NCBI GenBank assembly: GCA_009914755.4 | Contig: CP068257.2 | Location: 18,272,001-18,336,000, forward strand | Reading direction: 5' to 3' | Length of the DNA stretch: 64,000 nucleotides | DNA from: the human T2T-CHM13v2.0 reference genome, Homo sapiens | Shown: positions 1,090 to 61,390 of the stretch, one piece after another | Layout of the letters: each line of letters opens with the position of its first letter | Numbering within the stretch: position 1 is the first letter of the stretch | The notes under the pieces: generated by a model | What the model was told of the DNA's origin: nothing | The model's database searches: none | What the model saw: only the letters and a program-made list of their open reading frames with translations | Program-made: the position numbers and the translations under genes

Positions 1090-1435
1090 TGTTCCTGTGT
1101 TAGTATGCTAAGGATACTGGTCTCCAGCTCCATCCATGTGCCTGCAAAGGACATGATCTCATTCTTTTATGGATACATAGCGTTCCATGGTGCATATGTA
1201 CCACATTTTCTTTTGATGAGAACACATGGACACATAGATGAGAACAACACACACCAGGGCCTTTCAGAAGCTGGAGGGTGGGAGGAAGGACAGGATTAGG
1301 AAAAATAACTAGGGGTACTAGGTTTACTATCTGGATGATGAAATAATCTGTACAACAGGCCCTCATGACACACCTTTACCTATGTAACAAACGTGGACTT
1401 GTACCCCTGAACTTAAAAGTTAAAAAAAAAAAAAA
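1090..1435 (+). mobile_element. L1 3'-end fragment (older L1PA/L1PB-like) with 5' inversion: 1090-1213 antisense of ORF2 C-terminus, 1214-1435 sense 3'UTR plus poly-A
   Basis: 1214-1421 matches the L1 3'UTR sense strand (gagaacacatggacaca...tacctatgtaacaaacgtggacttgtacccctgaacttaaaag), followed by a14 tail. 1090-1213 (ctgttcctgtgttagtatgctaagg...ccatccatgtgcctgcaaaggacatgatctcattcttttatgg...ccacattttcttt) is the reverse complement of the L1 region immediately upstream. Flanked by aagaatagttca at 1077-1089 and 1434-1446 (TSD). Confidence 0.85.
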
Positions 1436-1446
1436 GAATAGTTCAT

Positions 1447-1730
1447 GGCTATGCAAAGTGGCTCAAGCCTTTTATCCCACCACTGGGAGGCTGAGATGGG
1501 AGAATCCCTTGATCCCAGGAGTCTCAGACCACACTGGGCAACATGGCAAAACCCCAACTCCACAAAATATGAAAATATTAGCCGTGCATGGTGGCTCGCG
1601 CCTGTAGTCTCAGCTAATTGGGAGTCTGAGGTGGGAGGATCACTTGATTCCCAGATGTCAAAGCTGCTGTGAGATGTGATCATGCCACTGTGCTATAGCC
1701 TGTTCAACAGAGCGAGACTCTGCCTCAAAG
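1447..1730 (+). mobile_element. Alu (AluJ-like, diverged) SINE
   Basis: ggctatgcaaagtggctcaagcc...gggaggctgagatgggagaatcccttgatcccaggagtctcagaccacactgggcaacatggcaaaaccccaactccacaaaatatgaaaatattagccgtgcatggtggctcgcgcctgtagtctcagc...gagcgagactctgcctcaaag. Many CpG to TpG changes. Flanked by aagaatagttcat (1434-1446) and aaggaatagttgttcat (1731-1747). Confidence 0.9.
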
Positions 1731-2254
1731 AAGGAATAGTTGTTCATTTAATGTGTTTTGTCACTGAAGGAACCTCAATATCTGAAAGTGTCTTCAGTTC
1801 ACAACGTCACTGAGCTTGTTAAATTCTTTTTATTCTCTGACAAAGAGAGTTTTGGAAGGCAAGCATGGTTCTATGTTAAGAGGCAGAAGGTGTACACGAT
1901 TGAATAATTTGGCAGGGGAGATTTCTTGTATTTTTCTCCGGTGTTTTTACTTTTATGATCTTCAAAGCACTCTGCACTTGTATTGAAGGGTGGCTGTGGT
2001 CTACACAGTTTGTAAGTAATTTATTGTCCATCTGAAAGTCTGGTTATTACTTGGCCATTGCATTAAGCAATTTTCTGCTTTTTCAGTACCAATAATAATC
2101 AGCTTTTAGACTTTATCTTTCATCATTAAGTAGCCTCGTATACTTACTTATCACAGCCTTTTGGTGAGGGAACAATTTCACTGTTCTCTCCTATTGTGTG
2201 GTAAGGAACACAGTAAGAAGAAATGATAGTTAATTTCCTCCAATGCCAAATATG

Positions 2255-2700
2255 TATTAATCAGGGTGTACCAGAGACACAGAACGAATAGGATATGTAT
2301 ATAGATATATGAAAGAAGACTCCACAAGTTGGACACCCTTGGATGCTGGTAGTGTGGCTCTGCATAAAATCCTTGAGACCCGAGGGGCCACTGGCATAAG
2401 TCCTAGAGTCCAAAGACCAGTGAGCCTGGAGTTCTGATGTGCAGGCAGAAAAAGGAAAGTCTGTCCCAGCTCTCAGACAGAGACGTGTTCACCTTCTATA
2501 TTTGTTCTCCCGGGGCCCCCCGCTGACTGGATTTTCCCCACCCAGTTCACTCAGACTCACCCACTAATCTCCTCTGGAAACATCCTAGCAGACACTCAAA
2601 ATAATACTTTATCAGGTTTCCTGATAAAAGCCTCAAGCCAGTCACGTTGACTCCTAAAATCAAATCCACCCCTTGTCAATTTGGCAGCTATATGCATCTC
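2255..2700 (+). repeat. Ancient interspersed repeat (family whose consensus begins tattagtcagggttctccagagaaacagaaccaatagg...); probably LTR/MER-class; name not certain
   Basis: tattaatcagggtgtaccagagacacagaacgaataggatatgtatatagatatatg...ccagtcacgttgactcctaaaatcaaatccacc parallels a very common mammalian repeat consensus recalled from memory. Confidence 0.45.
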
Positions 2701-2792
2701 TTTAAAACATACTTAATTCCCAAATAAAGACAATAACAAAGGAATCGTCTGTCTAACATGATGCAATTATCCTGCGATTGTGATTTTCAGAA

Positions 2793-2875
2793 TTTCAGAC
2801 CTTAGGAATTTTAGACCTTAGGAATTTTAAACTTTAGAGCTTTAAACTTTAGGGATTTTAATCTTAAAATATTTC
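2793..2875. repeat. Short tandem repeat, ~17-bp unit x ~4.5 (agaccttaggaatttta / aactttagagctttaa / actttagggatttta)
   Basis: Direct reading: cagaccttaggaattttagaccttaggaattttaaactttagagctttaaactttagggattttaatcttaaaat. Confidence 0.8.
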
Positions 2876-5800: not shown

Positions 5801-7584
5801 ATGTGTAATTAAATTTGGATATTTTATATGTCTTTGAGAAGAGAAAATTCCTACTAAATGGTATGTTTAATTTATTGTTTTCAAAGTTGATAAAATAAAT
5901 GGGTAAATAATATCAAGAAGATTGAATAACAAAACTCAACAGAAACATTCTGTTGTATTCACAATGACTATATGTTAACTTTTCCTTTTTATATCATTAT
6001 AGACTCATGACTTTTTAGAATTACTGTATATCATTGATCTCAGCCAATACTCCCCTTTTCATGCTCATGTCTCTCAGCTTATCCAGTGACAGCCCACTTT
6101 AGATTGGCTTCTTTGTCCTTTTGATGCAGTTCCATTAAGTCTTGGAAGCTGCTTTCTTTCTGATACAACAAAATGTTCAAAAATCAATTTGTCTCAACCC
6201 CAGACATAAAATCAGCCATTTTTTCAAGGAGAACCAGTTTCTTTTAATAGAACTTGTATTAGAGATATAAATCTGAGATCTAAGGTAGCTTGTGATAAAA
6301 ATATTAGTATACTTTCCATTTCAGTGACACATATACAGAAAGTATATCTTTATACTTTCTAAAATTTTATTTAAATGTGAATTTATAGATGAATTCATAT
6401 TACTTTTTGTGATTTTCACTGTGATTGTAGTAGGAAAGTTGTTTTATTGAATTTTTTTCTTACACTGAAATTCTGAATTCTTAAAATATAATTACTTTTT
6501 TGCACTAGCAGATTTTACAAGTAAATTGTTGCAAAATAACAATACATTATTAATAATACTATACAATTACTGAATTTCAAAATATTCTAGTGGTTTATTT
6601 AGTTTACAGAGTTTATGCTATTAAATATGTGAAGTCAAATTTCTTCTAGAATCGCTTATACTTTCTCAGTCTTTGTGGCTATTTAAATATTTATTGATGA
6701 ATCTTGTTAGTTATTCCAGATTAGGTCAATTGTTTCAATTTGATTTTCATATGAGAGTTCTGGCATTCTACATCTCACATTTCTAAATTTCTAGAGGGTT
6801 GAGGTTTTTCTTGTGGCAATTTTTATTTACTAGAAGGCAGAAAAGTTGGTTCAAACCTGAGAAAGGAGAAAAGAACATTTTAAATAGGCCATTCTCTAAC
6901 ATTTTAAGATTCCATTTGATTTATCTTAACACTAAATACGATGACTTACTACTGTAAGTACCCCTTTGTAATCATGCTTTCTGGAAGAATAAACAAATTT
7001 TGCCTACTACTGTTCAATTTCATGTAATATCAGAATCCATACACTTAATTATTGACAATTATTGTTCTGATTTTCTAACATATGAGTAAAACATATTTTT
7101 AAAAATTATGATACACTGATCATGTTTTAAAAATCTCATTATATATTTCTAAATATAGTATTTGAATTTTAAAAGGCATTTAATTAAAAAATTGGAATAA
7201 GTAGTTTTTCTAGGTTGAAAAAAGCACTGGCATTCTAAATTTAGTCAAACAAAGAAAATACAGATTTATCCTTTGCTCTACCTTCTTCATAATTCCCCTG
7301 CAAACTGTCTAGAAACTGGAATTTAACATTCAAAGAAATTCTAAACCCATAAATTTAGAGCCAAACTTCATGTAAATTCCTTATTAGGTATCACATTCTT
7401 ATTATCCGGTTTGTTTTTTGAGCTTAAAACTACAAAAAAGGAATTATTGGTTGGAAATATGTTTAATCATATGTATCTTATATTTTCATATCCAGATATA
7501 AACATTTATTCTGTATTTCTGATTAAAGTAAACTGCAATGCATAATTGAAATTTAGATTTAAAAACACAACTTTTACTACAATA

Positions 7585-9052
7585 CCACCACAAAACATGA
7601 AATGCTTAGATATAAATCTAACAACATATGTACATGATTTATGTGAGAAAAACTGCAAAACTCTGATGAAGGAAATTAAAGAAGAACTAAATCAATAGTC
7701 TGTGTTAATGGATAGAAAGACTCAATATTGTCAAGATGTCAGTTCTTCCCAACTTGATCTAGAGATTCAATGCAATCTTAAACAAGATCTCAGAAAGTAA
7801 TTTTGTGGATACAAGCAAATTCATTCTAAAGTTTATATAAAAAGGCAAAAACCCAAAATTGACAATGCAATGTTGAATTAGAACAAAGTGGGAAGATTGA
7901 CGCTACCCAAATTCAAGGTTAATTATGGAACTACAGAAATTAATACTGTGTGGTATTGGTGAAGGGATAGTCAGAGCAATGAACTATTTAGACAGTCCTC
8001 AGAATAAACATATAAATCTAGTCAACTTATCTTTGGCAAAGGGGCAAATGCAGCCTAATAGACCAATGATAATCTTGAAACAAATAGTGCTGGAACAATT
8101 GAACATCAGCATGTAAAACATGAATGTAGACGCAGATTTAATACTTTTCACAAAATTTAACGCAAAATGCAGCCATTTTGAAGACAGCTTGGTGGTTTCT
8201 AATGACTAAAATCCACAACACTGGCAAGACAAAATGTTAGTGAGGATGTGGAACATCGATTTTTATTTATTGCTTCTGGAAATGAACAATGGTACAGACA
8301 CTTTAGAAGATAGTTTGGTGGTGTCTTACAAAGCTAAGCATACTCTTTCCATATGATCCAGCAATCTCACTCTTTAGTATTTGCAAAATAAGTTGAAAGT
8401 TTATGTCTACACACAAATCTACATGCTGGATATTTATAGCAACTTTATTTATAATTGCCAAAACTTGAATATAACCAAGATGTCCTTTTGTAAGTGAATG
8501 AATAAATAAACTGTGGCACATCCAGACAATGAAATATTATTTGGCACTAAAATGAAATAAGCTATCAAGTCATAAGAAGACATGGTGGAAACTCAAATGC
8601 ATATTCCTAGGTGAAAGAAGCCAATCTAAAAATGCTATATACTGTATGATTCCAACTACATGACATGCCGGATAAGGCAAAGCTCTGAAGACAGTCAAAA
8701 AAGATCAATGGTTGCCAGGGGTTCAGGGGATGGAATGAAGAAGTGAAGCACAATGAGAATATTTTGTAAAATACCCTAATGATAGACACACATAATTATA
8801 CACTTGCCCCAAACCGTATAAAATGTGCAATACGGAGAGTGAACCTAATGTATCCATGAACTTTAGGTGGTTATAATGCGTTACTGTAGGTTCATCAGTT
8901 GTAACAGATGTACCACTCTGATAGAGCATGTTCGTAATGGGGGAAGCTGTCCATGAGTGAGGGCGGGAGTATATGGAAATCTTTGTTCCTTTCTCTGAAT
9001 TTTGCTGTGAACCTAAAACTGCTCTAAAAAAAAATAAACTCTTAAAAACATT
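7585..9052 (+). mobile_element. L1M (old mammalian-wide L1, L1MB-like) 5'-truncated 3' portion: ORF2 C-terminal region plus 3'UTR, sense orientation, with internal deletion
   Basis: Frame translation around 7600-8100 gives an ORF2-like run (…KDSILSRCQFFPT.., YGTTEINTVWYW.., …IFGKGANAA…) comparable to L1 ORF2 [30 protein letters not shown] / [25 protein letters not shown]. The 3'UTR matches the L1M 3' consensus (gatcaatggttgccaggggttcagggg...ccactctgatagagcatgttcgtaatgggggaagctgtccatgagtgagggcgggagtatatggaaatctttgttcctttctctgaattttgctgtgaacctaaaactgctctaaaaaaaaataaa). Confidence 0.8.
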
Positions 9053-10505: not shown

Positions 10506-10860
10506 CTTAGCTTGTTTGACCTGCTTTGACAAAAATACCATATACTAAGTAGCTGATAAAAAACTGAAATTTACTTCTGAGTTGTAGATACTGGGAAGTC
10601 TAAGATCAAGGAAGATTAGGTTTCTGGTGAGGGTCTGCCGTCTGGCTCATAGAGGGCGCCTTTTCTGTCTCCTCACATGGTGAAAGGATTAAATGAGCTC
10701 CCTCAAGTTTCTTTTATAAAGGCTCAAACATATTCATGATGGCCCTGCCCATATGATCTGCTTACCTGCTGAAGATCCCACCTCCTAATACTATCATCTA
10801 GCGGGTGAGGATTTCATCATACTAGTTTTTGGGGAGGATGTAAACATGCAGACCATAGCA
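10506..10860 (+). repeat. Ancient LTR/MER-type repeat, family A (consensus-like tgccataacaaaatacc..ctgggtggcttaaacaacagaaat..ctggaagtccaagatcaagg..cctcacatgg..)
   Basis: cttagcttgtttgacctgctttgacaaaaataccatatactaagtagctgataaaaaactgaaatttacttctgagttgtagatactgggaagtctaagatcaaggaagattaggtttctggtgagggtc...tcctcacatggtgaaagg...cttttataaaggctcaaacatattcatgatggccctgcccatatgatc. Same family as 35251-35691 and 62250-62800. Confidence 0.6.
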
Positions 10861-11454: not shown

Positions 11455-11600
11455 TAGTAAAATACTATATATGTGTATATGTGTGTGTGAGTATATATAT
11501 ATACCACTGCCATATATATATTTTATATGTAATTATATATTAATGATATTAATATATATATATATATGGCAGTGAGTGTGTGTATTTGTGTGTGTGTTTT
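11455..11600. repeat. Compound (TA)n/(TG)n/(CA)n microsatellite containing a short inverted repeat (cactgccatatatata / tatatatatggcagtg)
   Basis: Direct reading of tatatatgtgtatatgtgtgtgtgagtatatatatataccactgccatatatata...atatatatatatatggcagtgagtgtgtgtatttgtgtgtgtg. Confidence 0.85.
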
Positions 11601-40528: not shown

Positions 40529-40869
<341 letters not shown>

Positions 40870-41062
40870 CACATCCGATTTCTTAAAATCTCTGGCATAT
40901 CATCCCATCATTCTACTTGAGCCTGCTCTTCCTAATCATGTGTTCAAACCAATAAATCCTGTGCATGTAATCATATTGTTATATTTCCTTTACCGTAAGT
41001 TAAGGAAAGTGGTCCTATGAGATTACAAGTTGATACATAGGCATTCTGTAAGACCATGAGAG

Positions 41063-42803
41063 GTAATAAGGTATAAGGAAGGGGTCCAGTTTCCATTTTC
41101 TGCATATGGCTGGTCAATTCTGCCAGCATCATTTATTAAATATGGAATCATTTCCTTATTGCTTGTTTTTGTCAGGCTTGTCAAAAATCAGATGGTTGAT
41201 GTGTGGTTTTATTTCTGAGTTCTCTATTCTGTTCCATTGATCTGTGTACAAGTACCATGTTGTTTTGGTTACTGTAGCCTTGTAGCATAGTTTGAAGTCA
41301 GGTAGCGTGATGCCTCCAGCTTTGTTCTTTTTGCTTAGGATTGTCTTGGCTATATGGGCCCTTTTTTGGTTCCATATGAAATTTAAAGTAGTTTTTTTCT
41401 AATTCTATGAAGAAAATCAATGGTAGTTGGGGATATAGCACTGAATCTATAAATTACTTTAGCAGTATGGCCATTTTCATGATATTGATTCTTCCTATCC
41501 ATGAGCATGGAACGTTTTTCTGTCTGTTTGTGTTGTCTCTGATTTCCTTGAGCAGTGGTTTGTAGTTCTCCTTGAAGAGGTCCTTGACCTCAATTGTTAG
41601 CCGTATTCCTAGGTATTTTATTCTCTTGTGGCAAAAATTAACTCAAGGTGGATTAGACACTTAAATGTAAAACCCAAAACTATAAAAACCCTAAAAGAAA
41701 ACCTAAGCCATACTATTCAGGACCTAGGCATGGGCAAAGATTTTATGATGAGATCATCAAAAGCAATTGCTACAAAAGCAACAATTGACAAATGGGATCT
41801 AATTGCATTAAAGAGCTTCTGCACAGCAAAATAAACTATCATCAGAGTGAACAGGCAACCTACAGAATGGGAGAACATTTCTGCAATCTGTCTTTCTGAC
41901 AAAGGTCTAATATCCTGTATCTACAAGGAACTTAAGCAAATTTACAAGGATAAAAATGAACAATCCCATTAAAAAGTGGGCAAAGGATAGGAATACACAC
42001 CTCTCAAGAGAAGGCATACATGCAGACAACAAACATATGAAAAAAAGCTCAACATCACTGATGATCAGAGAAATGCAAATCAAAACCACACAGTGAAATA
42101 TCATCTTGTGCCAATCAGAAAGGCAATTATTAAAAAGTCAATAAACAGATGCTGCAAGGTTGAGGAGAAATAGGAACATTTTTATGGTGTTGGTGGGAAT
42201 GGAAATTAGTTTAACCATTGTGGAAGATAGTGTAGTGATTCCTCGAGAATCTAGAACCAGAAATACCATTTGACACAGCAATCCCTTTACTGGGTATACA
42301 CACCCAAAGGAATATAAAGCATTCTATTATAAAGATACATGCACACATATGTTCATTGCATCACCATTTACAATAGCAAAGATGTGGAATTAACCTAAAT
42401 CCCCATCAATGATAAACTGGGTAAAGAAAATATAGTACATATACACCATGGAATACTATGCCACCATAAAAGGAAGATCATGTCCTTTGCAGGGACATGG
42501 ATGAAGCTGGAAGCTATTATTCTCAGTAAACTAATGCAGGAATAAAATAACCAAACACTGCATGTTTTCACTTACAGTGGGAGCTGAACACATGGACACA
42601 GGGAGCGGAACAATAAACTCTGGGGCCTCTTGGGGAGGTGAGGGAGCATCAGGAAAAATAGCTAATGCATGCCAGGCTTAATACCTAGGTGATGGGTTAA
42701 TAGGTGCAGCAAACCATCATGGCACACATTTACCTACGTAACAAACCTGCACATGCTGCGCATGCACTCTGAAACTTAAAATGAAATAAAATTTAAAAAA
42801 AGA
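41063..42803 (+). mobile_element. 5'-truncated L1 (older L1PA/L1PB-like) with 5' inversion: 41063-41633 antisense (ORF2 aa ~765-953), 41634-42803 sense (ORF2 aa ~956-end, 3'UTR, A-tail)
   Basis: Antisense part: ataaggaaggggtccagtttccattttctgcatatggctggtcaattctgccagcatcatttattaaatatgg...gtaccatgttgttttggttactgtagccttgtagcatagtttgaagtcaggtagcgtgatgcctccagc. Sense part: ORF 41628-41834 (+) [40 protein letters not shown] compared with L1 ORF2 [39 protein letters not shown]. 3'UTR ..gggttaataggtgcagcaaaccatcatggcacacatttacctacgtaacaaacctgcacatgctg..gaaacttaaaatgaaataaaatttaaaaaaag. Confidence 0.88.
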
Positions 42804-43375
42804 AAGGGAATAATGCCAGAAGCATTGCAATAAAGAAAGGACATTTAATACTCAGAATATATCGATACTTATGAGAATAAACTCCTGACTCCGCATTCAC
42901 CCACGGACATTTTTAAAATCTCATGTCAAAGAACCAACAAACTGAAAAGGGTGACCAAAGTGAATAAATCTAATTATCAAGCATGAACTAGGATACTGCT
43001 ACAAAACAGGAGTAAATAAGACCCAAGGCAACTCACTGGTGTTCCTAATACTACTTTGCTCAAAAGGTTTAGCCAATAAAAAATTACATCTATTAAGACA
43101 GTACTGATGTAGATACAGATAATTCAGGAAAAAAATAGCTTCAGATTACCTTCACCTCAGGAAATAACCCATTTTATCAGATTTCCAGCAAAAGATAAGA
43201 AGAATATGGAATACCTGAAAGAAGAAAGCAATGTTTATAAAGTTAAATCTTGTGATAAGCTGCAAAAGAGTGGCTCTGGGAGTGAGAAGAATTAAGAATA
43301 CCAGCTATGCTTTAAGTCAATTTTGGTTTTCTTCCCTTTACCCAACACCATGCCCAAAGGATTTAAGTCTTTGAG

Positions 43376-43908
<533 letters not shown>

Positions 43909-43924
43909 TAGCTTATTATACTTT

Positions 43925-47100: not shown

Positions 47101-47330
47101 GGTATTATGTTTTCATTAAATGTTTTATAGAATCCAGCAGTGAGGTAATTTTTTTTAAAGGAAACTTTTTATTACTTATTCACATCTTAGTGCTCATTAT
47201 TAGCTGTGTTCAGATTTTCTATTGTTTCAAGATACAATATTGATAGGTTGCATGTGTCCAGATATTTATCTGTTTCTGCTAGCATTATCCTATATATTGG
47301 TAATTTTTTGTATTTTTATAATATCAATTC

Positions 47331-50389
<3,059 letters not shown>

Positions 50390-51093
50390 TATCAATTCTA
50401 ATGTCTTACTTTTTATCTCTGATTTTATTTATTTAAGTTGTCTTTCACTTTTCCTCAGAGTCACCAAAGTTTTTGAATATTGTTTATCTTTTAAAAAAGC
50501 AACTGTTTATTTTATCTATATTTTGTGTTTAGTTTTTTGTCTCAATTTGTTTCCTCTTGAATATCATTTATTTTCTTCTAATAATTTGGGGTTTAGTGTG
50601 TTTTTATTTAGTTCTTTGAGGTGCTATGTTAGGTAGTTTATTTGTGATCTGTTTTCCTTCTGATGTAAGTTTTTATTGCAAGAAACTTCCCTCTTAGAAA
50701 TGTGTTTAACTGTGTTCTATAGGTTTTGATATGTTTCATTTCCACTTTCATTTGTCTTAAACATTTTTAAATTTTCCTTTTAATGTCTTTACCCATTGGT
50801 TGTTTGGGAACATTTTGTTTAATTTCTACATATTTGTAAAGTTTCTGTATTTCCTCTGTTATTGATTTTTAGTTTTATACCATTGTGCTCAGTAGAGATA
50901 CTTGATGTAATTTTAATCTTCTTAAATTTCATTTTGTCTCATGGTCAAATATATGGTCAAATATATGATCAAATATATTGTCTCGTGGTCAAATATATAT
51001 CTATATTTGATCTATGTTCTATGTGCAACAGAGAAGGATGTATATTTTGTACCTTTTAGTTGGAATGTTCTGCAAATGTCTGTTAGGCCCATT

Positions 51094-51399: not shown

Positions 51400-54300
51400 T
51401 GTGTTGTGGCTTCCATTTGTATGAAATATTTCTTTCTATCCCTTCACTTTTAGTCTATTTGTGTCTTGTAGGCAGCATATCATTGGGTCTTTTAAAAATC
51501 CATTGATCCACTCTTTTTATTTTTATTTTTTCATGATCTTCATTGGTTTATCATTTTAGGGATGGGTTCCTTCTGTGTTAGGCTGGAGGGCAGTGGCTAT
51601 TCACAGGCACAATCACTTCACACTACAGCTTTGTACCCCTGGCCTCAAGCAATCCTCCCACTTCAGCTTCCTGAGTATTTGTGACTACAGGGACATGCAA
51701 AACACTGGGTTTTATTCCTCTTAATAGTACAGTTTAATCCATTAATATGCAAGATGATTATTGATAGGTACAGATGTATTACTGCCATTTTAAAAATTTT
51801 CAAATTGTTTTATAGATTCTTTCTTTTTACCTGTCCTCTTGTGTGGTTAAATAATTTTCTCTAGTAGTGTGTTTTGATTTTTTAATTTTTATTCTTAATG
51901 TACCTATTAAAGGTTTTTGCTTTGTGGATACCATGAAGCTAACAAATAACATCTCATAGATATAACAGCTTAAAATAACTTGTTATATATATGAGATGTT
52001 ATTAACTCTGACCTTAATGTTTTAAGAAAAGGACTCTACAATTTGACCTCACTGCCTCCAATATTTTGAATTTTTATGTCACAATTTGCATATTTTAATG
52101 TTGCATATTTCTTAAATTATTTTAATTTTTACTATTTCTAATATTTTTGTATTTTAATCTTTATATTAGAGATATAAATGATTCATACACAATCATTGCA
52201 GTATTAGAGTATTCTTTATTTGACTCTGCACCTATTTTTATCAGTGAATTTTATACTTTCAAAATATTTGTGTGTGTGTGTGTGTGTATGTGTGACTCAT
52301 TAGCATCCTTTTCTTTCAGCTTGAAGAACTTCCTTTACCATTGTTTATAAGACAGATTTGGAGTTAAAAAACAAATAAAACTCCCTCAGCTTTTGTTTGT
52401 CTGGAAAAATGTTTATATCTCCTTCACATCTGAAAGATGGATTTGCTGACTACAGTATTCTTGGCTGGCAGTTTGGTTGCTTTTTTCCTTTAGCACTTTG
52501 AATATATCAACCCACCAACCTCCTGGCTGGTAAGGTTTCTGCTAAGAAATCCACTGATAGTTATATTGGCACTCTTTTGTATATGATGTGTTTCTTACCT
52601 CTTGGCTGCTTTCAGAATTTTTTCTTTGTCTCTTTTTTTTTTGATAATTTGATTATTTTATGTTTTGTTGTATTTCTCTCAGGGTTTAATTTTCTTGGAG
52701 ACCTCTATGCATCCCATATATGTGTGTTGGTATCTATCACAGGTTAATGCAGTTTTCAGCCATTATTCCTTTAAATGTGCTTACTGGACCTTTTCCTTTG
52801 TCTTCTTCTGTTGATTCTATTATAAAAACATTCAATCTCTTACATGTGTCCTATAATTCCCATAGATTTTCTTCATTCTTATTTATTCTTTTGTCTTTTT
52901 ATCCTCTGACTGGATACTTTAAAATTTGCCTTTCTGCTTACTGATTCTTTCTTTCTACTTGATAAGTTCTTCTGTTAAAATTTTCTATTACATTTTTTAT
53001 TGCAGTCATTGTATTATTCATTTCTAGGATTTCTACTGATCTTCTCATTTTTTTCAAATACTGGTTTCCAAACTTCATTAAATTTTCCATCTGTATATTT
53101 TTAAATTTTACTGAACTTCCTTATGAATATTATTCTGTATTATTGATCAGTCTTTGCATAGATCTCTATTTATTTGGGATTCATTATTTGAGCTTTATTT
53201 ATTTCTTTTTGAGAAATTATACTTCCCTGATTTTCCATAATCTTTGTATTCTTATGTTGTGACCTTCATATGTGAGGTGACAAGTCCCTTTTTGGTCCTG
53301 CACAGATATATTAGCAGACATAGAGCTATTTAGTCTAGGCTGTGGTCCTGGAAGGTTCAGCTGGTGATGATCCTGGAGAGGCAGAGTATGTTATAAGTTA
53401 TCCAGTTGGCTGGGTCACTGCCTTTGCTTTGATATTGAATGGGGTTACTAACTGGGTTCTGCTGACCAGTGAGACCATTGGTTGGACTCTGCTGTTAGGT
53501 GGTATGCTGGCTCATACTTCAATGGCTTCTGGTTAGACCCGGCAACATATATATTCCCTGGATGGGCAGTTTTGCTATTTGAAATCTGCACTTGAGCAGG
53601 GCTGAAAGTTGGACTCTAAGATTAGGTGGAGTCACTACTCTGAACAGGCAGGAGCTTAGGCTGTGCTCCTTAGAAACACACAATTTGAGATTGCCTCCTT
53701 GTCTGGGTGGAGCTGTGGAGTGGGCTTTTGGCTTAGTTCAGTGGCTGTTTGACTTCCCAGATCAAGCAGGACTGGCCTCTAAGTTTCTTCAAAATGTACA
53801 GAAATGGGAGTCTCTCTGCCTGGTTGGGATTGTTTTGTGGGCTATTTGTCGTCCCTACTTGCCTTCCTGGCTCGAGCCAGTCTGGCTTCTTTGCTTCTCT
53901 AAAATCTGCAAAGATGGGAATCTGTCTGCCTGGGCGGGGTCATTGGCCAGGCTTTTTGGCCATGTGGCACCTCTGATTACCTTCCCACATCAAGCATGTG
54001 TAGCTCCTTCACATCTCTGAGATCTGTGAAGACATGAGTCTTCCTGATTGGACAGGTTTGTTGTTGGTTCTGGAGTTGGCTGGGGAGACTAGCTGTCTAA
54101 GGGCTCACTGTATGTGAGCTAGATTGTGTTTCCTACTGTGCTTTTAAAGGTGACAAGCTTAGCTCTGTGAGTGAGCTAAGAGGTTGATTGATGCCTCTGA
54201 CCAAGTGCTACAGCTTGCAGGATGCAGTGGTAACACCAAAATCCTTGTCATTTGCTTTGTTTTACTCCTGGGTGGTCAAGCCATGCCATTTCTCTTAGTA

Positions 54301-56227
54301 TTCCTCATTAAGTGAGACCACAGTGGACTTCCTGAGAAGTTTTTTAGAATGGTAGTGAAGTCAGATAACTGTTTCAAGTTCGTTTTTCCCCTCATAGAAA
54401 CTGTGAGTCCAGGAAAATCTTTATCTGGTGCTATGCTACTTTGGTAGAAGGGGAGGTGGGGGTGCAGTCAGAATGAGACCATTCCTCTTAGCCATCAAAT
54501 TTAGATTTTGTTTACTTCTGCACACCACACAGGTGTCTCAGGCTTGTTTCCAGATGCTGAGGTTTTCAAAAGGATGTTCTGTCTGTAGATAGTCGCTAGT
54601 TGAAAGTTCTGTTGGAGCAATGGGGGTCAAGGTTTTTTCTTTGCCACATTGCTGACATCCTTAAGTTTGAATTAATAATGATTTTATTTTAATGTCAACT
54701 GAATAACTGATATTTATTTTTTAAAATATTTTTTAAGAAAACATCTGAAATCACAAGCAGGTTCATCATGAAAATATAAAAAAAAATTATTGTTAGTCAT
54801 GATCTATGAAAGAAGCAAAATATCATTTTTTTCCAAGTATTTATGATTGCTGTCTTTAAGGTTTTTTTTTCTATTATTCATAGTGATGATAGTTTTGACC
54901 CAAATATGATTTCAAGTCTTATTTGTAAATATTTTAAGGCACAACCAGGCCTGAATGTATTTTCTACTGCCCAATATAGAAGCAAATTTTGATTAAATCT
55001 AAAAACTTTTAATAATGCTGGAAATGATTATATGCCTTGCATGTAGGAATTTATTATATGCTATGTAATCAGTATATTGGAACCCTCATTCAAATAATTA
55101 TGCAAAACTGAACTTTATTTAAATAAATAAATAAGTAAACTTTTAAGGTGAGGTTTCACTTAGTTCCAGAATTATACTTACTGAAATATTACTATATTTT
55201 AAAATTTGCTATATATTATAATATTACTTATACTGATGATACTGATGGTTATGAAAATAAATAAAATATATTTATGGATATGTCAGTGTGACTCCAGTGA
55301 TTTATAGTTGTGTTTGTGTTTTTTTTTTCTAAAGGATTTGAACAACTTGCAAATACACCATGCTGGACACACTAAGATAAGCAAAATCAAGTAAGACCAT
55401 ATGCAAAATTGTATAATTTTTAATTGCGAAGTTTATTGCATTTAAAGCACTGAAATAACTTTTTAAAAAACATTTTATTTCACATACTTTTTCATATTCT
55501 TATTAAAAACATGATCTATTCATTTCAAACAGACTTATCCTGAAACTGAATATATAGACGTACTTTATCTGGAGAGACTCTTGCAAGTGATATTGAGCAC
55601 TATGGTAAAATAACTTTCCAATATTTTATGTAATTTTAATTGAAGGAGGATATACATACAAAAACTTTAAAGAAGTTATTGCAAATGTACAAATTGATGG
55701 ATTTTCATTAAATGAATTATCCTTATAGCCATCAGCTATATCAAGAAATAAAGCATCACTAGCCCCCAGAAGCTACCCTCAGCTTCCCTCCAAGTCACTA
55801 AAATTCTCCAAGTTGATAATCTTTCTGATGTTCAACACTAAATACTTTGTATATTTGTGTATAGTGTGCAAGATGGAATTTTACTGTATAGATTATTTTG
55901 CATCTGGCATTTTTTATTTAGTGAGATATCCAGTCAATATTAATTTTCATCATTGTTATGAAATATTTTATTATATGAAAATACAAAAATAGTGTGGGTG
56001 TGTGTTTGTGATCTACTACAAATGTGTAGTTTTCAGGGTTTTTTGGCTATTGTCTAACAACATTGGCTATTGTCTTTTTTATTTTATTTATTCTAGTGTT
56101 TGTGTACTAAAATTTAATCGTGATTTTATCTTGAAGGTCTCTGTTGACTAATGAGGTAGAGCATGTTTTCCTGTGTTTTAGCTGATCCACTTTGTAGGCA
56201 CCTTTTCCAGTGTTTGCATTTTTGATC

Positions 56228-56710
56228 TCTTGAATTGTCTGACTGTTATGGGTTGAATTGTGTTCCTCAAAAATTCATGTGTTGAGTTCCTAGCACCCAG
56301 AACCTCAGAAAGTGACTTTCTTTGAAAGTAAGGTCATTGCAGATGTAGTTAGGTAAAATGAGGTCATACTGAAGTAGGGTGGGCTCTAATATAATATACT
56401 TGATGCTTTTATTGAAAGGGAAAATTTAATTTCTGATACACAGACACATAGCGAGAATACCATGTGAAGATTAAAGAAGACATTGAGATGCCTTAGCAGA
56501 AGTCAACAAATGCCAAACATTGCCAGCCCACCACCGGTAGCTAGGAAAAAGACATGAAACTGATTTTTTTCCTCATAGCCTTTAGAAGGAACAACCTTGT
56601 GACACATTGATCTTGGATTTCTAACCTCCAAAACTGTGAGACAATACATTTCTGTTGTTTAAGCCACTCTGTGGTTATTTGTTGCAGTTGTAGCAAACTG
56701 GTGGACTGTC
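56228..56710 (+). repeat. Ancient MER/LTR-type repeat, family B (consensus-like gggttgaattgtgtcccc..aaaa..atgttgaagtcctaaccc.. ..ctccagaactgtgagaaaataaatttctgttgtttaagccac)
   Basis: tgggttgaattgtgttcctcaaaaattcatgtgttgagttcctagcacccagaacctcagaaagtgactttctttgaaagtaaggtcattgcagatgtagttaggtaaaatgaggtcatactgaagtagggtgggctctaatataatatac...cttggatttctaacctccaaaactgtgagacaatacatttctgttgtttaagccactctgtggttatttgttgcag. Name recalled only generically. Confidence 0.6.
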
Positions 56711-58926
56711 GTTTATTGATTTGTAAGAATATTGTATATATTCTGGATATGAGTTATTTGTCAGTAATATAAACTGTAAATTAGTCTGTGATTTGTCTAT
56801 TCATTCTTTTAATGGTGCCTTTTGATGAATAAAAGTCATTAAGATTAATGTAGGTTAAACGTTCATATTTTACTACATGGCTTATATATTTTTGTCCTGC
56901 CTAAAAAATATTTGCTCACTCCTAGATCATAAAGATCGAAATATATTTTCTTCTAGAAAATAGTATTTGTCTTTTATATTTAAGTCTACAATGCACTGAG
57001 AATTGAGTTTTGTAAATACAATGATGTAAGAGTCACGATTTATATTTTTGGTATTTAATTGGCTCAGTATCAAAAATAAATTCTTCCCCATTTCAATATA
57101 TATCACATTTTTATGTGACTCCGTAAGTCACATAAAAGACTCCATAAGCCTTTTTCTGGCATTTTATCATATTCTTCTTGTCTAGGTGTCTATTTCTGAG
57201 TTAATTGTATATTATCATATTTATTATATATGTATATTTTATAATTATATCTGAAAATAAAAGTTCTTCAGCTTCTTTAATACTTCTGCAAGATTTCTCA
57301 AACTATTATTGGCTCTATTTTTCATATAAGTTTCAAAAACAACTTATCAAGTTTTGCCAAGAAACCTGCTGGGATTTTTGTTGGAGTTGCATCAAATCAA
57401 TATATTAATTAGGAGAGATTACATGTTCACAATACTGACTTTTCCCAACCTTGAACCTTGAATAGTGTACTTGTTTAGAGAGTCTTTAACTGACAGTTTT
57501 TACATTTTGTAGTTCGTATTGGAAGGTTATTGCTCGTCTTCTGTTAGATATGTTACTATGTATTTTATCTTTCTAATGCTATTGGAAACATTTCATTTTT
57601 ATCTTCTATTTTCTATGTTTTTCCTTATAGTGAGAATTACATTGAATTTTTGCCCTTGCTAAATTTCCTTACTAATTATTATGTATCTATAATTTTGAAA
57701 AATCCTATATATGCTATATGTAGAAGGAGCAGTTTTATTTATTGCCTTCCAATCCTAATGCCACTGTCTTTTTAAAAATGTCTTTTATTATCACACGATG
57801 ACTTCCAGTACCATGTTGATAGACCACAAAATAGTTTTCAAAATCCATAAAATTTTCTCAGATTAAAAATGCATGTAAAATTTTTTTAGTAAACATTCTG
57901 TCATTTGCTTTCATTCACAGTGCAGTCATTTAAAATAGTATACCTAGTAACCTTGGCTCTTCACTCCCCAATCATTCTGCAACTGAACACATACTGACTT
58001 CCTCTATCCTATTTCAGTGACACTATAAATGCTACCTGCCACTCTCTAATTTGCACTCTATTGTATAATTTTCATTTCAATTCTGTATTGTATCTGTAAT
58101 CCTTTTGGAAGTTTTTGTTTATTGCCTTGTATGAAGCCACTCATAGTGTTTTTTGACATTAGTTTTTATAACAGGAGTTTTGGAGTCAGGAAAGGCTTAT
58201 ATTTGTGTCTATAAGGAGTTTCTTATTTAACCCTTTCAAATTCTCTAATTCTTTAATACTTTTATCTTCTAATATATACTTACAAGACTTTTGTAGGAAA
58301 GAAATACATGTAAAGTGCCTAGTACATGGCCAGGCACATGACAAAGGGACAATAAATTATAGTTCTTTGGCATATCTATGTCTATCCTTGTGCTCCTCAA
58401 AATTAGGTTTTCCTGCAGGTTTTCTTTTAGAAATTTGTTCTTCTCATTCTAATCGCCTATCTTGAGTAATATCTTATTGTTGCCTTTTAAAATTCAGCTT
58501 AAGCTTTATCCCCTTTATTCTTCCTGAGCAAATCTAACATATTTTCTTCTGTCATGTTTTCATAGTATTCTCACTTATCACTTGCTATGCTTTACATTCT
58601 AATAACATATGCTTATTTCCTCAAACTTGAATGCGAGTTTTTTATTTGAAAGAAAAATTGTGTTTCATTTCTATAATGAAAATCTTGAGACTTGAGCTTT
58701 CATAAAGTCATTTAATCTTCCATTTGCAGATACATTTTTTTCAGAGTATCACTAATATATGTGGCTGCTTAAATTCATTGCAAGGATTTTATTATTATCA
58801 TTCAGGTAAATTATATGATGAAAGTATATTGGGGGTAAGATAATTATCCAGAAAAGTATAAAGGCAGAATAATATACACACATTAATATAGGCTTACCAT
58901 TTATGTCCTATTTCCTACTCCATTCT

Positions 58927-58980
58927 CCCTTCCTTCCTTCCTTCCTTCCTTCCTTCCTTTCTTTCTCTTTCCTTCTTTTC
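58927..58980. repeat. (TTCC)n microsatellite, located between the TSD and the body of the adjacent minus-strand Alu (i.e. derived from its A-tail; (GGAA)n on the Alu strand)
   Basis: ccttccttccttccttccttccttccttcctttctttctctttccttcttttc followed by t20. Confidence 0.9.
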
Positions 58981-59282
58981 TTTTTTTTTTTTTTTTTCTG
59001 AGACAGAGCCTTGCTCTGTTGCCCAGGCTGGAGTACGGTGGTCCAATCTAGGCTCACTGCAAGCTCTGCCTCCCAGATTCAAGCAATTCTCCCTTCCTCA
59101 GCCTCCTCAGTAGCTGGAATTACAGGCTCCCGCCACCACACCTGGCTAATTTTTCTATTTTTAGTAGAGAAGGGGTTTCGCCACATTGGCCGGGCTGGTC
59201 TCAAACTCCTGACCTCAGGTGATCCATCCACCTTGGCTTCCCAAAGTGCTGGTATTACAGGCATGATCCACTGCACCCGGCC
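58978..59282 (-). mobile_element. AluS-like SINE, minus strand
   Basis: t20 ctgagacagagccttgctctgttgcccaggctggagtacggtggtccaatctaggctcactgcaagctctgcctcccagattcaagcaattctcccttcctcagcctcctcagtagctggaattacaggctcccgccaccacacctggctaatttttctatttttagtagagaaggggtttcgccacattggccgggctggtctcaaactcctgacctcaggtgatccatccaccttggcttcccaaagtgctggtattacaggcatgatccactgcacccggcc. TSD ctccattctcc at 58919-58929 and 59283-59293. Confidence 0.92.
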
Positions 59283-59431
59283 TCCATTCTCCATTTCTAA
59301 CCAGATTCTTTCCAAATTTGATTTTTCAAACAATGCCACATTGAATTTGTGCCTCCTTATAGAATACTTGATAGGGGTAGGAAATGAGCACTTCAAATTT
59401 TACCAATTTTACCATTTTATCAAGCGATTCT

Positions 59432-59627
59432 CCTGCCTCAGCCTCCCGAGTAGCTGGGATTACAGGTGTGCACCAGCACACCGGGCTAATTTTGTATTTT
59501 TAATAGAGACGGGGTTTCTCCATGTCGGTCAGGGTGATCTCCAACTCCCGACTTCAGGTGATCCACCCGCCTTGGCCTCCCAAAGTGCTGGGATTACAGG
59601 CATGAGCCACCGCCCCCAGCCGTCATT
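59432..59627 (-). mobile_element. Partial Alu (about 195 bp, corresponding to the Alu 5' two-thirds), minus strand
   Basis: gattctcctgcctcagcctcccgagtagctgggattacaggtgtgcaccagcacaccgggctaattttgtatttttaatagagacggggtttctccatgtcggtcagggtgatctccaactcccgacttcaggtgatccacccgccttggcctcccaaagtgctgggattacaggcatgagccaccgcccccagcc. ORF 59011-59661 (216 aa) is stitched from this and the preceding Alu and is not a gene. Confidence 0.88.
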
Positions 59628-59689
59628 TGTTATATGTAAATATCTGTTTCCAGTTTTTTAAAATTTTTTTAACATTAATTATTATTCTG

Positions 59690-61390
59690 GTTCATTTTTA
59701 ATTGTTGTGGGTACATAGTAGGTGCATATATTTATGTAGTGCATGCCATATTTTGATACCGGTATAAAATAGATAATAATCACCGCAGGGTAAATGGGGT
59801 ATCCATTGCCTCGAGCATTTATTTTTTCTTTGTGTTACAAAAAACTCTAATTATACTCTTTTATTTTAGAATGCACAATAAATTATTGTTGACTGTAGTT
59901 ACCTTGTTATGCTATCAAATCTAGATCTCATTCATTCTATCTAACTATATTTTTGTACCCATTTACTGTTCCCACTCTCGTGCAGCTCTCCTCTACCCTT
60001 CGCTACTCTTCCCCAGCCTCTGGTAACCATCATTCTACTCTCTGACTCCACGAGTTCAATTGTTTTAAATTTTAGCTCCTACAAATAGGTAAGAACATGT
60101 GAAGTTTGTCTTTCTGTGACTGGCTTATTCCACTTAACATAATTTGCAGTTCCATCCGTGTTGTTGCACATGACAGGATCTCATCTTTTTATTATTATGG
60201 CTGAATAGTACTCCATTGTGTGTACGATCACATTTTCTTTATCTATTCATCTGTTGATGGACACTTAGCTTGCCTCCAAATCTTAGCTATTGTGAATGGT
60301 GCTGCGGTAAACATGGAAATGAAGATATCTGTTTGATATACTGATTTTCTTCCCTTGGGACATATACTTAGCAGTGGGATTCTACATCATATGGTAGTTA
60401 TATTTTTATTTTTTTGATGAACCACCACATTCTTCTTCACAGTGGTTGTACTAACTTACATTCTCATCAACAGTGTATGAGGGTTTCTTTTTCTCCATAT
60501 CCTCACCAGCATTTGTAAATGCCTGTCTTTCGAGTAAAAGCCATTTTAACTGGAATAAGATGATATCTCATTGGAGTTTTGGTTTTTGTTTATTTCTTTG
60601 TTTTGAGACAGGGTTTCACTCTGTAGGGCAGGTTGGAGCATAGTGGAACAATCATGGGCTCCCTTGCAGCCTTGATTTCCTGGGTTCAGATGATTCTCCC
60701 ACTTCAGCCCCACAAGTATCTGGGACTACAGGTGCACACCATCATGCCCCACTAATTATTGTTTTTTTTTTTTTTTTTTTTGTAGAGACAGGGTTTCACC
60801 ATGTTGCTCAGACTGGTCTTGAACTGTTGAGCTCAAGCAATCCACCTGCTTCAGTCTCCCAAAGTGCTGGGATTACAAGTGTGGGCCAGCACATCCAGCC
60901 TCATCGTAGTTTTGATTTGCGTTTCTCTGATGATCAGTGATGTTGAGCACCTTTTCATACACTGTTTGCCATTTGCATGTCTTCTTTTGAGAAATGTATA
61001 TTGATGAAACTAGACCCCTTTCTCTCGCCATATACAAAAACCAAATAAAAATGGAATAAGACTTAAATCTAAAACCTCAAACTATAAAATTACTAAAAGA
61101 AAACTTTAGGGAAACTCTCCAAGGTATTAGAGTGGGCAAATATTTTTCAAATAATATTCCACAAGCACAGGAAATACAAAAATGGACAAATGAGATCACA
61201 TCAAGTTAAAAAGCTACACAGCAAAGGAAATAATCAACAAAGTTAACAGACAACAAACAGAATGGGAGAAAATATTTGCAGACTATTCATCTGACAAGGG
61301 ATTAATACCCAGAATACAAAGGAAGCTAAAATTACTCAATATTAAAAAAATCTAATAATTTGATTAATAAATGGTCAAAAGATTATTGAG
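59690..61390 (-). mobile_element. L1M (L1MB/L1MC-like) 5'-truncated element on minus strand with twin-priming 5' inversion: 59690-60995 direct (antisense on +; 3'UTR and ORF2 aa ~1125-end), 61003-61390 inverted (sense on +; ORF2 aa ~940-1122); carries an AluJ insertion
   Basis: 3'UTR antisense taattattattctggttcatttttaattgttgtgggtacatagtaggtgcatatatttatgtagtgcatgccatattttgataccggtataaaatagataataatcaccgcagggtaaatggggtatccattgcctcgagcatttattttttctttgtgttacaaaaaactctaattatactcttttattttagaatgcacaataaattattgttgactgtagttaccttgttatgctatcaaatctagatctcattcattctatctaactatatttttgtaccc...ctccattgtgtgtacgatcacattttctttatctattcatctgttgatggacacttagcttgcctccaaatcttagctattgtgaatggtgctgcggtaaacatgg. Sense piece translates to ..[47 protein letters not shown] compared with L1 ORF2 [48 protein letters not shown]. 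Confidence 0.8.
60586..60900 (-). mobile_element. AluJ-like SINE (old, CpG-decayed), minus strand, inserted into the L1M above
   Basis: ttgtttatttctttgttttgagacagggtttcactctgtagggcaggttggagcatagtggaacaatcatgggctcccttgcagccttgatttcctgggttcagatgattctcccacttcagccccacaagtatctgggactacaggtgcacaccatcatgccccactaattattgttttttttttttttttttgtagagacagggtttcaccatgttgctcagactggtcttgaactgttgagctcaagcaatccacctgcttcagtctcccaaagtgctgggattacaagtgtgggccagcacatccagcc. Flanking L1M sequence ..ctcattggagttttggttt / catcgtagttttgatttgcgtttctctgatgatcagtgatgttgagcacc is continuous (decayed TSD ~agttttgRttt). Confidence 0.88.

What the first reader, a model, noticed from the sequence alone, without database searches (positions are those of the whole stretch)
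1090..61390. Four of the L1 insertions in this window carry twin-priming 5' inversions, each with L1-coordinate adjacency at the junction
There are four independent inverted L1s: 1090-1435, 41063-42803, 47331-50386 and 59690-61390. In every case the outer end of the inverted segment and the inner start of the direct segment map to nearly adjacent L1 positions. The first has a gap of about 45 nt. The second goes from ORF2 aa ~953 to aa ~956. The third goes from ..ASIILI to (PKPG)RDTTK, about 10 nt lost. The fourth goes from aa ~1122 to aa ~1125. That is the diagnostic footprint of twin priming during target-primed reverse transcription. Genome-wide roughly a quarter of L1 insertions are inverted. 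Here 4 of about 9 L1 copies are, and they span ages from L1M to young L1PA.
Basis: partly seen in the sequence, partly recalled or inferred. Interest (0 to 1): 0.5.

Follow-up and report, generated by a model that had tools for sequence, protein, structure and literature searches.

The report
Four ordinary twin-primed inverted L1 insertions
Four LINE-1 retrotransposon copies in this primate-type window each have their front part flipped, exactly as the known "twin priming" insertion mechanism predicts, and four such copies among about ten L1 insertions is no more than expected.

Summary
At all four sites an antisense L1 piece abuts a sense L1 piece that carries the 3' end and A-tail. In each case the outer end of the inverted arm and the start of the direct arm map to neighbouring L1 positions.

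- **E1:** 45-46 nt missing.
- **E2:** 1 nt missing.
- **E3:** 10 nt missing.
- **E4:** 0-9 nt missing, or a short overlap.

One pair of target-site duplications (TSDs) brackets each composite.

- **E1:** perfect 12 bp.
- **E3:** perfect 15 bp.
- **E4:** a 12-bp exact core within a 16-17 bp repeat, followed by AA (a TTTT/AA endonuclease site).
- **E2:** degenerate, 11 of 14, and not significant on its own.

No inverted arm has its own 3' end or A-tail. The two arms of E2 and of E4 are about equally diverged.

This is the textbook structure of twin priming during target-primed reverse transcription.

Three details need correcting. The window holds at least 10-11 L1 insertions, not about 9. Published inversion rates are 18-31%, which gives P(4 or more) = 0.07-0.46, so there is no local excess.

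The finding is real, correctly interpreted, already known and of low interest.

The parts
1077..1088 (+). E1 5' target-site duplication AAGAATAGTTCA
   Evidence: Perfect 12/12 match to 1434-1445. 0 of 300 shuffles and 1 of 3000 random window pairs reach this score.
1089..1213 (-). E1 inverted arm, ORF2 aa ~1216-1262. Its outer end at 1089 corresponds to ORF2 nt ~3786.
   Evidence: tblastn aa 1221-1262 on the minus strand. blastn reference 2097-2221, 81.6% identity. End alignment.
1216..1433 (+). E1 direct arm. It starts 4 nt after the ORF2 stop and runs through the 3'UTR to the A-tail at 1422-1433.
   Evidence: blastn reference 2268-2462 on the plus strand. Junction alignment. Sequence read.
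1434..1445 (+). E1 3' target-site duplication
41058..41071 (+). E2 putative 5' TSD GAGAGGTAATAAGG. Its last 6 nt (41066-41071) also match L1, as a CCTTAT microhomology.
   Evidence: 11 of 14 identical to 42802-42815, at exactly the expected positions. Not significant alone: 61 of 300 shuffles and 178 of 3000 random pairs. Sequence read.
41066..41631 (-). E2 inverted arm, ORF2 aa ~758-956
   Evidence: tblastn aa 760-956 on the minus strand. blastn reference 726-1304, 84% identity. End alignments.
41632..42801 (+). E2 direct arm, from the 2nd nt of ORF2 codon 957 to the 3' end, with an A7 tail at 42795-42801
   Evidence: blastn reference 1306-2492 on the plus strand. tblastn aa 938-1274..
42802..42815 (+). 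E2 putative 3' TSD GAAAGGGAATAATG
47317..47331 (+). E3 TSD copy next to the A-tail, TATAATATCAATTCT. In the reconstructed empty site the TSD is followed by AATG, giving a TTCT/AA endonuclease-type cleavage site.
   Evidence: Perfect 15/15 match to 50385-50399. 0 of 300 shuffles and 1 of 3000 random pairs.
47332..49819 (-). E3 direct arm. It has a short A-tail (47332-47337 as T), the 3'UTR, and ORF2 from the GC of codon 521 to aa 1275, including a 621-codon open stretch.
   Evidence: tblastn aa 522-1275, 93-94% identity. PDB alignment. Sequence.
49820..50386 (+). E3 inverted arm, ORF2 aa 329-517. There is a GC microhomology at the inversion junction (49819-49820) and a TA overlap with the TSD at 50385-50386.
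   Evidence: tblastn aa 329-517 on the plus strand, 95.8% identity. Sequence.
50385..50399 (+). E3 TSD copy next to the inverted arm
59651..59667 (+). E4 TSD copy next to the A-rich tail, CAGTTTTTTAAAATTTT
   Evidence: A 12/12 core, TTTTAAAATTTT, matches 61407-61418. 3 of 300 shuffles and 1 of 3000 random pairs reach this score. The sequence is low in complexity.
59668..61004 (-). E4 direct arm: degenerate A-rich tail, 3'UTR and ORF2 aa 1076/1079-1269. A later Alu interrupts it.
   Evidence: tblastn aa 1070-1269 on the minus strand. blastn reference 1662-2190. Alignments.
60582..60899 (-). Alu inserted later into the E4 direct arm, with its own TSD CTCATYGKAGTTTTG (60567-60581 and 60900-60914)
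   Evidence: Sequence read. The 19-nt overlap in reference coordinates between the two blastn pieces fits the Alu TSD.
61005..61383 (+). E4 inverted arm, ORF2 aa ~944/947-1075
   Evidence: tblastn aa 944-1058 on the plus strand. blastn reference 1265-1594. Codon reading ...[12 protein letters not shown] corresponds to aa 1064-1075.
61384..61402 (+). E4 unresolved 19 nt between the last clear L1 codon and the TSD. It is either degenerate L1 (aa 1076-1082, which would make a short overlap between the arms) or filler.
   Evidence: The alignment needs 4 indels and is not convincing.
61403..61418 (+). E4 TSD copy next to the inverted arm, CAGGTTTTAAAATTTT, followed by AAGAG. This makes a TTTT/AA cleavage site.

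Best explanation
Each of the four elements is a single L1 retrotransposition event that went through twin priming.

1. The L1 endonuclease nicked the target, and the T-rich 3' end primed reverse transcription on the poly(A) tail. This produced the direct arm.
2. Before that cDNA was finished, the second target strand was cut a few to about 15 nt away. That offset later becomes the TSD.
3. The 3' overhang of the second strand annealed by a few bases to an internal site of the same L1 RNA and primed a second cDNA. This produced the inverted arm.
4. The two cDNAs were joined at a short microhomology.

The product has the order TSD, antisense arm (L1 positions b down to a), sense arm (c to the 3' end, then the A-tail), TSD, with b and c adjacent on the RNA.

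**Shown here:** the architecture, the breakpoints, the TSDs and the comparable age of the arms.

**Inferred from established knowledge of target-primed reverse transcription:** the order of nicking and priming, and the enzymes involved.

The four events are independent and of different ages. Finding them together in one AT-rich, L1-rich 64-kb window is within expectation.
For: 1. **Opposite-strand L1 arms.** tblastn with a PDB-verified ORF2p shows them at all four sites.

2. **Adjacent L1 coordinates.** Between the outer end of the inverted arm and the start of the direct arm, E1 loses 45-46 nt, E2 1 nt, E3 10 nt and E4 0-9 nt. A long-read survey found that 46% of 5'-inverted L1s have these two ends within 20 bp (PMC12016303).

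3. **One TSD pair encloses both arms.** E1 has 12/12, E3 has 15/15, and E4 has a 12/12 core within a 16-17 bp repeat. Each reaches that score in 1 of 3000 random window pairs. E2 has 11/14 at the exact predicted positions.

4. **Only the direct arms carry the 3'UTR and A-tail.** The inverted arms end internally in ORF2.

5. **Endonuclease-type target sites.** E4 has TTTT/AA, E3 has TTCT/AA and E1 has TCTT/G.

6. **Junction microhomologies.** At the 5' junction, E3 has 2 nt (TA) and E2 has up to 6 nt (ATAAGG). At the inversion junction, E3 has GC and E2 has C. Published data show that 95% of 5'-inverted L1s have 5' microhomology, mostly 2-5 bp (PMC2912911).

7. **Arms of similar age.**
   - Identity to the E3 reference: E2 0.873 against 0.838; E4 0.74 against 0.76-0.82.
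   - Private substitutions: E4 21.8% against 19.0% (p=0.40); E2 6.8% against 8.7% (p=0.31), counted at sites where three reference copies agree.

Against: - **E2 TSD.** It is degenerate: 11 of 14, with an empirical P of about 0.06.
- **E2 arm ages.** With only two reference copies, the inverted arm shows fewer private changes than the direct arm (6.5% against 10.1%, Fisher p=0.037, uncorrected).
- **E4 TSD and gap.** The TSD is low in complexity, and 19 nt between the last clear L1 codon and the TSD remain unexplained.
- **E1 arms.** They differ in identity to other copies (about 0.82 against 0.73). The 3'UTR is generally more divergent between subfamilies here, and the arms are short.
- **Missing resources.** I had no subfamily consensus library and no orthologous empty sites. 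Assignment to the same subfamily is therefore indirect.
Confidence: 0.93

Rival explanations
1. Each pair is two independent L1 insertions of opposite orientation that happen to abut, or one nested at the edge of the other.
For: The window is L1-rich, and nesting does occur. E3 sits inside an older L1, and a 190-bp young L1 3' end is nested at 34230-34421. E2's TSD is weak, and its arms differ marginally in private substitutions (p=0.037).
Against: An independent L1 insertion almost always keeps its 3' end and A-tail. None of the four inverted arms has one.

Chance adjacency of L1 coordinates is unlikely. My estimate, assuming uniform breakpoints over about 6 kb, is roughly 0.001-0.02 per element for gaps of 46, 1, 10 and up to 9 nt. 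All four together are far less likely.

The TSDs enclose both arms in E1, E3 and E4.
Confidence: 0.02
2. An ordinary 5'-truncated L1 inserted first. Its 5' portion was later inverted in place by breakage and rejoining or by recombination.
For: An in-place inversion of the 5' segment would give the same arm order and the same coordinate adjacency. Sequence alone cannot strictly distinguish this for the old copies E2 and E4.
Against: One inversion breakpoint would have to coincide exactly with the boundary between the L1 5' end and the TSD, and this would have to happen four times.

The small internal losses of 46, 10 and 1 nt, together with the 5'-junction microhomology between TSD and L1, are the published signature of twin priming (PMC2912911, PMC12016303).

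For E4, I tested whether the inverted piece is internal to a longer L1. The flanking L1-like matches are much weaker, with E of 1e-4 or poorer against 4e-41 for the arm. They lie at least 500 nt away and do not fit the required spacing.
Confidence: 0.03
3. The window has a truly elevated rate of 5' inversion, for example because local target-sequence properties favour second-strand internal priming.
For: 4 of about 10-11 L1 insertions (36-40%) are inverted, against published rates of 18-31%.
Against: The binomial P(X>=4) is 0.07-0.46 for n=9-11 and p=0.184-0.309. The window was also singled out after the fact.

Old L1 fragments that I could not detect without a repeat library would raise the denominator further. 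The four events differ widely in age, so no single cause links them.
Confidence: 0.03

Closest known systems
Twin-primed (5'-inverted) L1 insertions (Ostertag & Kazazian 2001, cited from my own knowledge; described in PMC2837659, PMC2912911 and PMC12016303)
   Same: - The order is TSD, antisense 5' arm, sense 3' arm with A-tail, TSD.
- The arms come from adjacent parts of one L1 RNA, with a small deletion.
- The TSDs of 12-17 bp fall in the published 10-17 bp range.
- The junctions have microhomologies of 1-6 bp.
- The arm lengths (inverted 125-570 nt, direct 0.2-2.5 kb) fall in the published ranges.
   Different: Nothing substantive differs. E1 has an unusually short total length (about 345 nt) and a larger 46-nt gap. 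E4 has 19 unresolved nt at the 5' junction.
Twin-priming variants with a 5' poly(T), and 'dual priming' with two RNAs (Meyer et al. 2010, PMC2837659)
   Same: Both DNA strands at the target serve as primers for reverse transcription.
   Different: Those variants give an inverted A-tail (a 5' poly-T) or two 3' ends. Here neither is present at the outer end of any inverted arm, and the arms are contiguous parts of one L1.
Simple 5'-truncated L1 insertions
   Same: They share the 3' end, A-tail, TSD and endonuclease-type target site.
   Different: The four elements carry an additional antisense 5' arm. Other L1 copies in the window look simply truncated or fragmented: 7579-8721, 31776-35256, 34230-34421 and 56071-57574.

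Membership tests
Twin-primed 5'-inverted L1 insertion | Two fragments of L1 lie in opposite orientation, with the inverted one on the 5' side of the direct one. | tested here: met
   tblastn with PDB-verified ORF2p, and blastn against E3 as reference, at all four sites.
Twin-primed 5'-inverted L1 insertion | The direct fragment carries the L1 3' end and poly(A). The inverted fragment has no 3' end or A-tail of its own. | tested here: met
   The direct arms reach reference position 2462-2492 plus A-runs. The inverted arms end inside ORF2, at aa 1262, 956, 517 and 1075.
Twin-primed 5'-inverted L1 insertion | The outer (3'-most) end of the inverted fragment and the 5' end of the direct fragment map to adjacent or slightly overlapping positions of one L1 RNA. 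| tested here: met
   The gaps are 45-46, 1, 10 and 0-9 nt.
Twin-primed 5'-inverted L1 insertion | A single pair of target-site duplications flanks the whole composite. | tested here: met
   Met for three elements. E1 has 12/12, E3 has 15/15 and E4 has a 12/12 core, each reached by 1 of 3000 random pairs. E2 is inconclusive on its own, with 11/14 correctly placed and 178 of 3000 random pairs.
Twin-primed 5'-inverted L1 insertion | The target has an L1 endonuclease-type cleavage site (TTTT/A-like) at the A-tail side. | tested here: inconclusive
   E4 has TTTT/AA, E3 has TTCT/AA and E1 has TCTT/G. E2 is not determinable because its TSD is degenerate. The motif is loose, so this is weak evidence.
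Twin-primed 5'-inverted L1 insertion | There is microhomology between the target overhang and L1 at the 5' junction, and also at the inversion junction. | tested here: inconclusive
   E3 has a 2-nt TA at the 5' junction and GC at the inversion junction. E2 has up to 6 nt at the 5' junction and 1 nt at the inversion junction. E1 has 0-1 nt. E4 is unresolved. Exact lengths need each subfamily's consensus.
Twin-primed 5'-inverted L1 insertion | Both arms derive from the same L1 RNA, so they share subfamily and age. | tested here: inconclusive
   - **E4:** the arms are indistinguishable (p=0.30-0.40).
- **E2:** p=0.31 with three references but 0.037 with two.
- **E3:** both arms are 93-96% identical in amino acids to human ORF2p.
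- **E1:** too short to test.

No consensus library was available.
Twin-primed 5'-inverted L1 insertion | Orthologous or allelic empty sites lack both arms together, showing a single insertion event. | not testable with these tools
   No primate genome collection was available. The searchable collections hold phages, plasmids, E. coli, other prokaryotes and metagenomes.

The most novel reading that the evidence does not exclude
The clustering of four twin-primed L1s of very different ages in one 64-kb window might reflect a lasting local property that favours second-strand internal priming. For example, AT-rich and L1-rich target DNA could give overhangs that anneal readily to L1 RNA. Inversion frequency would then vary by region across the genome.
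Probability: 0.03. Interest if true: 0.35.

Novelty: already known. Interest (0 to 1): 0.08.

Why it matters
It matters little beyond correct annotation. These are four clean, textbook examples of a mechanism described in 2001 that affects about a fifth to a third of L1 insertions.

They have three practical uses:
- The eight opposite-strand L1 pieces should be merged into four insertion events when elements are counted or dated.
- E3, with its perfect 15-bp TSD, exact breakpoints and microhomologies, is a good worked example.
- The window gives no evidence that inversion frequency varies by region.

Tried and rejected
1. **A possible fifth inverted L1.** The plus-strand segment 35277-35689 abuts the 5' end of the minus-strand L1 at 31776-35256. 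It has no ORF2 or ORF1 similarity even at E=5. It is instead a copy of a roughly 415-bp non-L1 repeat that is also found at 56252-56667. Rejected.

2. **E4 as an internal inversion within a longer old L1.** The weak minus-strand L1-like hits to the right of E4 (61637-62970) are far more diverged than the E4 arms. Some are mutually inconsistent, and they do not fit the spacing this model needs. They more likely belong to a much older L1, possibly the same one as 56071-57574, into which E4 and Alus inserted. Rejected.

3. **Fold-back (hairpin) priming.** This would make the arms complementary copies of the same L1 segment. Instead the arms map to different, contiguous segments. Rejected.

4. **Extending the E4 inverted arm through 61384-61402.** Reading these bases as degenerate L1 codons 1076-1082 needs four indels. 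Left open.

5. **Literature.** Ostertag & Kazazian 2001 (PMC311219) is not held. A search for Szak et al. 2002 found nothing. I took rates and definitions from PMC12016303, PMC2912911 and PMC2837659 instead.

6. **Consensus libraries.** No Dfam or Repbase consensus was available. I used the young copy E3 and a PDB-verified ORF2p as coordinate references.

Full report
**Setting**

The window is primate-type DNA. It is AT-rich (GC 0.28-0.42) and full of Alu and L1 sequence.

No repeat library was available, so I built my own coordinate system. A 621-codon open stretch at 47559-49421 on the minus strand matches human LINE-1 ORF2p in the PDB (8uw3_A, 9k6g_A; E=0), covering residues 663-1275. An N-terminal sequence I supplied matched 8uw3_A over residues 1-710, with two mismatches that I corrected. 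Together these gave a verified 1275-aa ORF2p reference.

**Map of L1 sequence**

| Element | Inverted arm | Direct arm |
|---|---|---|
| E1 | 1089-1212 (-), aa 1221-1262 | sense 3'UTR that follows |
| E2 | 41066-41639 (-), aa 760-956 | 41550-42582 (+), aa 938-1274 |
| E3 | 49820-50386 (+), aa 329-517 | 47559-49818 (-), aa 522-1275 |
| E4 | 60995-61331 (+), aa 944-1058 | 60093-61023 (-), aa 1070-1269 |

E3 is young, with 93-96% amino-acid identity to human ORF2p, so I used it as a DNA reference for the 3' 3 kb of L1.

**Breakpoints**

The blastn hits and end-anchored alignments give the following.

- **E1.** The inverted arm, 1089/1090-1212, matches reference 2097-2221/2222. The direct arm, 1216-1424, matches reference 2268-2462. 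So 45-46 nt are missing, from the end of ORF2 codon 1262 to 4 nt past the stop codon.
- **E2.** The inverted arm, 41066-41627, matches reference 726-1304. The direct arm, 41632-42804, matches reference 1306-2492. This runs from codon 956 to the 2nd nt of codon 957, so one nucleotide is missing.
- **E3.** The inverted arm ends at ...GCCAGCATCATCCTGATA (I517). The direct arm begins at GC-AGA-GAC (codon 521/522). So 10 nt are missing. A GC dinucleotide is shared at the inversion junction (49819-49820).
- **E4.** The inverted arm reads ...[12 protein letters not shown], which corresponds to aa 1064-1075 and ends at 61383. The direct arm begins at ATCAATATACATTTCTCAAAAG, which corresponds to M1076/H1079 onwards. 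A 12-nt stretch (60994-61005) fits either arm about equally well, so 0-9 nt are missing.

Its residue numbers are 1-3 aa low for E2 and about 47 too high for E4.

**Target-site duplications**

- **E1.** AAGAATAGTTCA at 1077-1088 and 1434-1445, 12/12.
- **E3.** TATAATATCAATTCT at 47317-47331 and 50385-50399, 15/15.
- **E4.** CAGTTTTTTAAAATTTT at 59651-59667 against CAGGTTTTAAAATTTT at 61403-61418, with a 12/12 core. The right-hand copy is followed by AA, which gives a TTTT/AA cleavage site.
- **E2.** GAGAGGTAATAAGG at 41058-41071 against GAAAGGGAATAATG at 42802-42815, 11/14.

Against 3000 random pairs of window segments of the same size, the scores for E1, E3 and E4 were each reached once. The E2 score was reached 178 times. 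Three of the four composites are therefore bracketed by a significant TSD pair. The fourth has only a plausible, decayed one at the predicted position.

In every case the TSD lies outside both arms. The A-tail is attached only to the direct arm.

**Microhomology**

- In E3, the first two bases of the TSD copy next to the inverted arm (TA) also continue the L1 sequence.
- In E2, the last six bases of the left TSD copy (ATAAGG) are the complement of L1 CCTTAT, at codons 955-956.

This is what is expected if the top-strand overhang annealed to the L1 RNA to prime the second cDNA. Published data show that 95% of 5'-inverted L1s have such microhomology, mostly 2-5 bp (PMC2912911).

**Age of the arms**

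Identity to the E3 reference:

| Element | Inverted arm | Direct arm |
|---|---|---|
| E2 | 0.873 | 0.838 |
| E4 | 0.74 | 0.76-0.82 |
| E1 | 0.83 | 0.73 (3'UTR) |

I also counted private substitutions, meaning sites where the other L1 copies agree and the arm differs.

- **E4:** 21.8% against 19.0% (p=0.40), and 11.0% against 14.4% (p=0.30).
- **E2:** 6.8% against 8.7% (p=0.31) with three references, but 6.5% against 10.1% (p=0.037, uncorrected) with two.

For E1, the lower identity of the 3'UTR arm follows the general pattern here. 3'UTRs are 2-8 points more divergent than the ORF2 end between the other copies. The arms are also short.

Nothing here points to arms of different origin. Without subfamily consensus sequences, though, this test is only moderately powerful.

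**Alternatives**

- **Independent abutting insertions.** These are excluded by the missing 3' ends and A-tails of the inverted arms, by the enclosing TSDs, and by the improbability of such tight coordinate adjacency four times over.
- **Post-insertion inversion.** This would need a breakpoint exactly at the L1/TSD boundary each time, and it does not explain the small deletions and the TSD-L1 microhomology.
- **E4 as an internal inversion of a longer L1.** L1-like matches to its right (61637-62970) are much weaker than the arms, partly inconsistent with each other, and wrongly spaced. They probably belong to a much older L1 that E4 inserted into.
- **A possible fifth case.** The segment at 35277-35689 turned out to be a non-L1 repeat.

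**Comparison with the literature**

Reported frequencies of 5' inversion are as follows.

- 30.9% of human- and chimpanzee-specific L1 insertions (PMC2912911).
- 18.4% of germline and 21.9% of somatic insertions in long-read data (PMC12016303).

In the long-read data, 46% of inverted insertions have the two cDNA ends within 20 bp, and overlaps are common in germline events. The four gaps here are typical.

**Frequency in this window**

I count at least 10-11 L1 insertion events. This is a lower bound, because old fragments cannot be detected without a library.

- E1 to E4.
- 7579-8721.
- 31776-35256.
- A nested young 3' end at 34230-34421.
- 43353-43894.
- The old L1 at 44300-47316 and 50400-~53000, which E3 splits.
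- 56071-57574.
- 63092 to beyond 64000.

P(X>=4) is 0.07-0.46 for n=9-11 and p=0.184-0.309. There is no evidence of local enrichment.

**Verdict**

The phenomenon is well known and the local frequency is unremarkable.

Noticed in passing
window 34230-34421 (-): A roughly 190-bp young L1PA-type 3' end, 91% identical to the E3 3'UTR. It is nested in the same orientation inside the older L1 at 31776-35256.
   Followed up: partly
window 35277-35689 (+) and 56252-56667 (-): Two copies of a roughly 415-bp interspersed repeat, 66-67% identical, with no ORF1 or ORF2 similarity. The second copy interrupts an old L1 between ORF2 aa 1070 and 1090. The first abuts the 5' end of the L1 at 31776-35256 and could be mistaken for an inverted arm. 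I did not identify the repeat family.
   Followed up: partly
window 43412-43521 and 43842-43894 (-), compared with 44913-45056: A small L1 ORF2 C-terminal fragment, split by an Alu with TSD GACTGACTTTATTTT. It is 87-88% identical to the matching part of the neighbouring old L1. Old L1 copies elsewhere in the window are only about 65% identical to each other, so this suggests a local duplication rather than an independent insertion.
   Followed up: partly
window 44300-47316 and 50400-~53000 (-): A long, old, near full-length L1, with ORF1 remnants at 52312-52898 and ORF2 aa 30-1272. The E3 insertion splits it, in the same orientation.
   Followed up: partly
window 60582-60899 (-): An Alu inserted into the direct arm of E4, with its own 15-bp TSD CTCATYGKAGTTTTG at 60567-60581 and 60900-60914.
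   Followed up: yes
window 61637-62970 (-) and 56071-57574 (-): Very weak, roughly collinear L1-like matches (ORF2 aa ~356-681) to the right of E4, and a clearer old L1 piece (aa 764-1125) to its left. They may be one ancient L1 broken up by E4, Alus and other insertions.
   Followed up: partly
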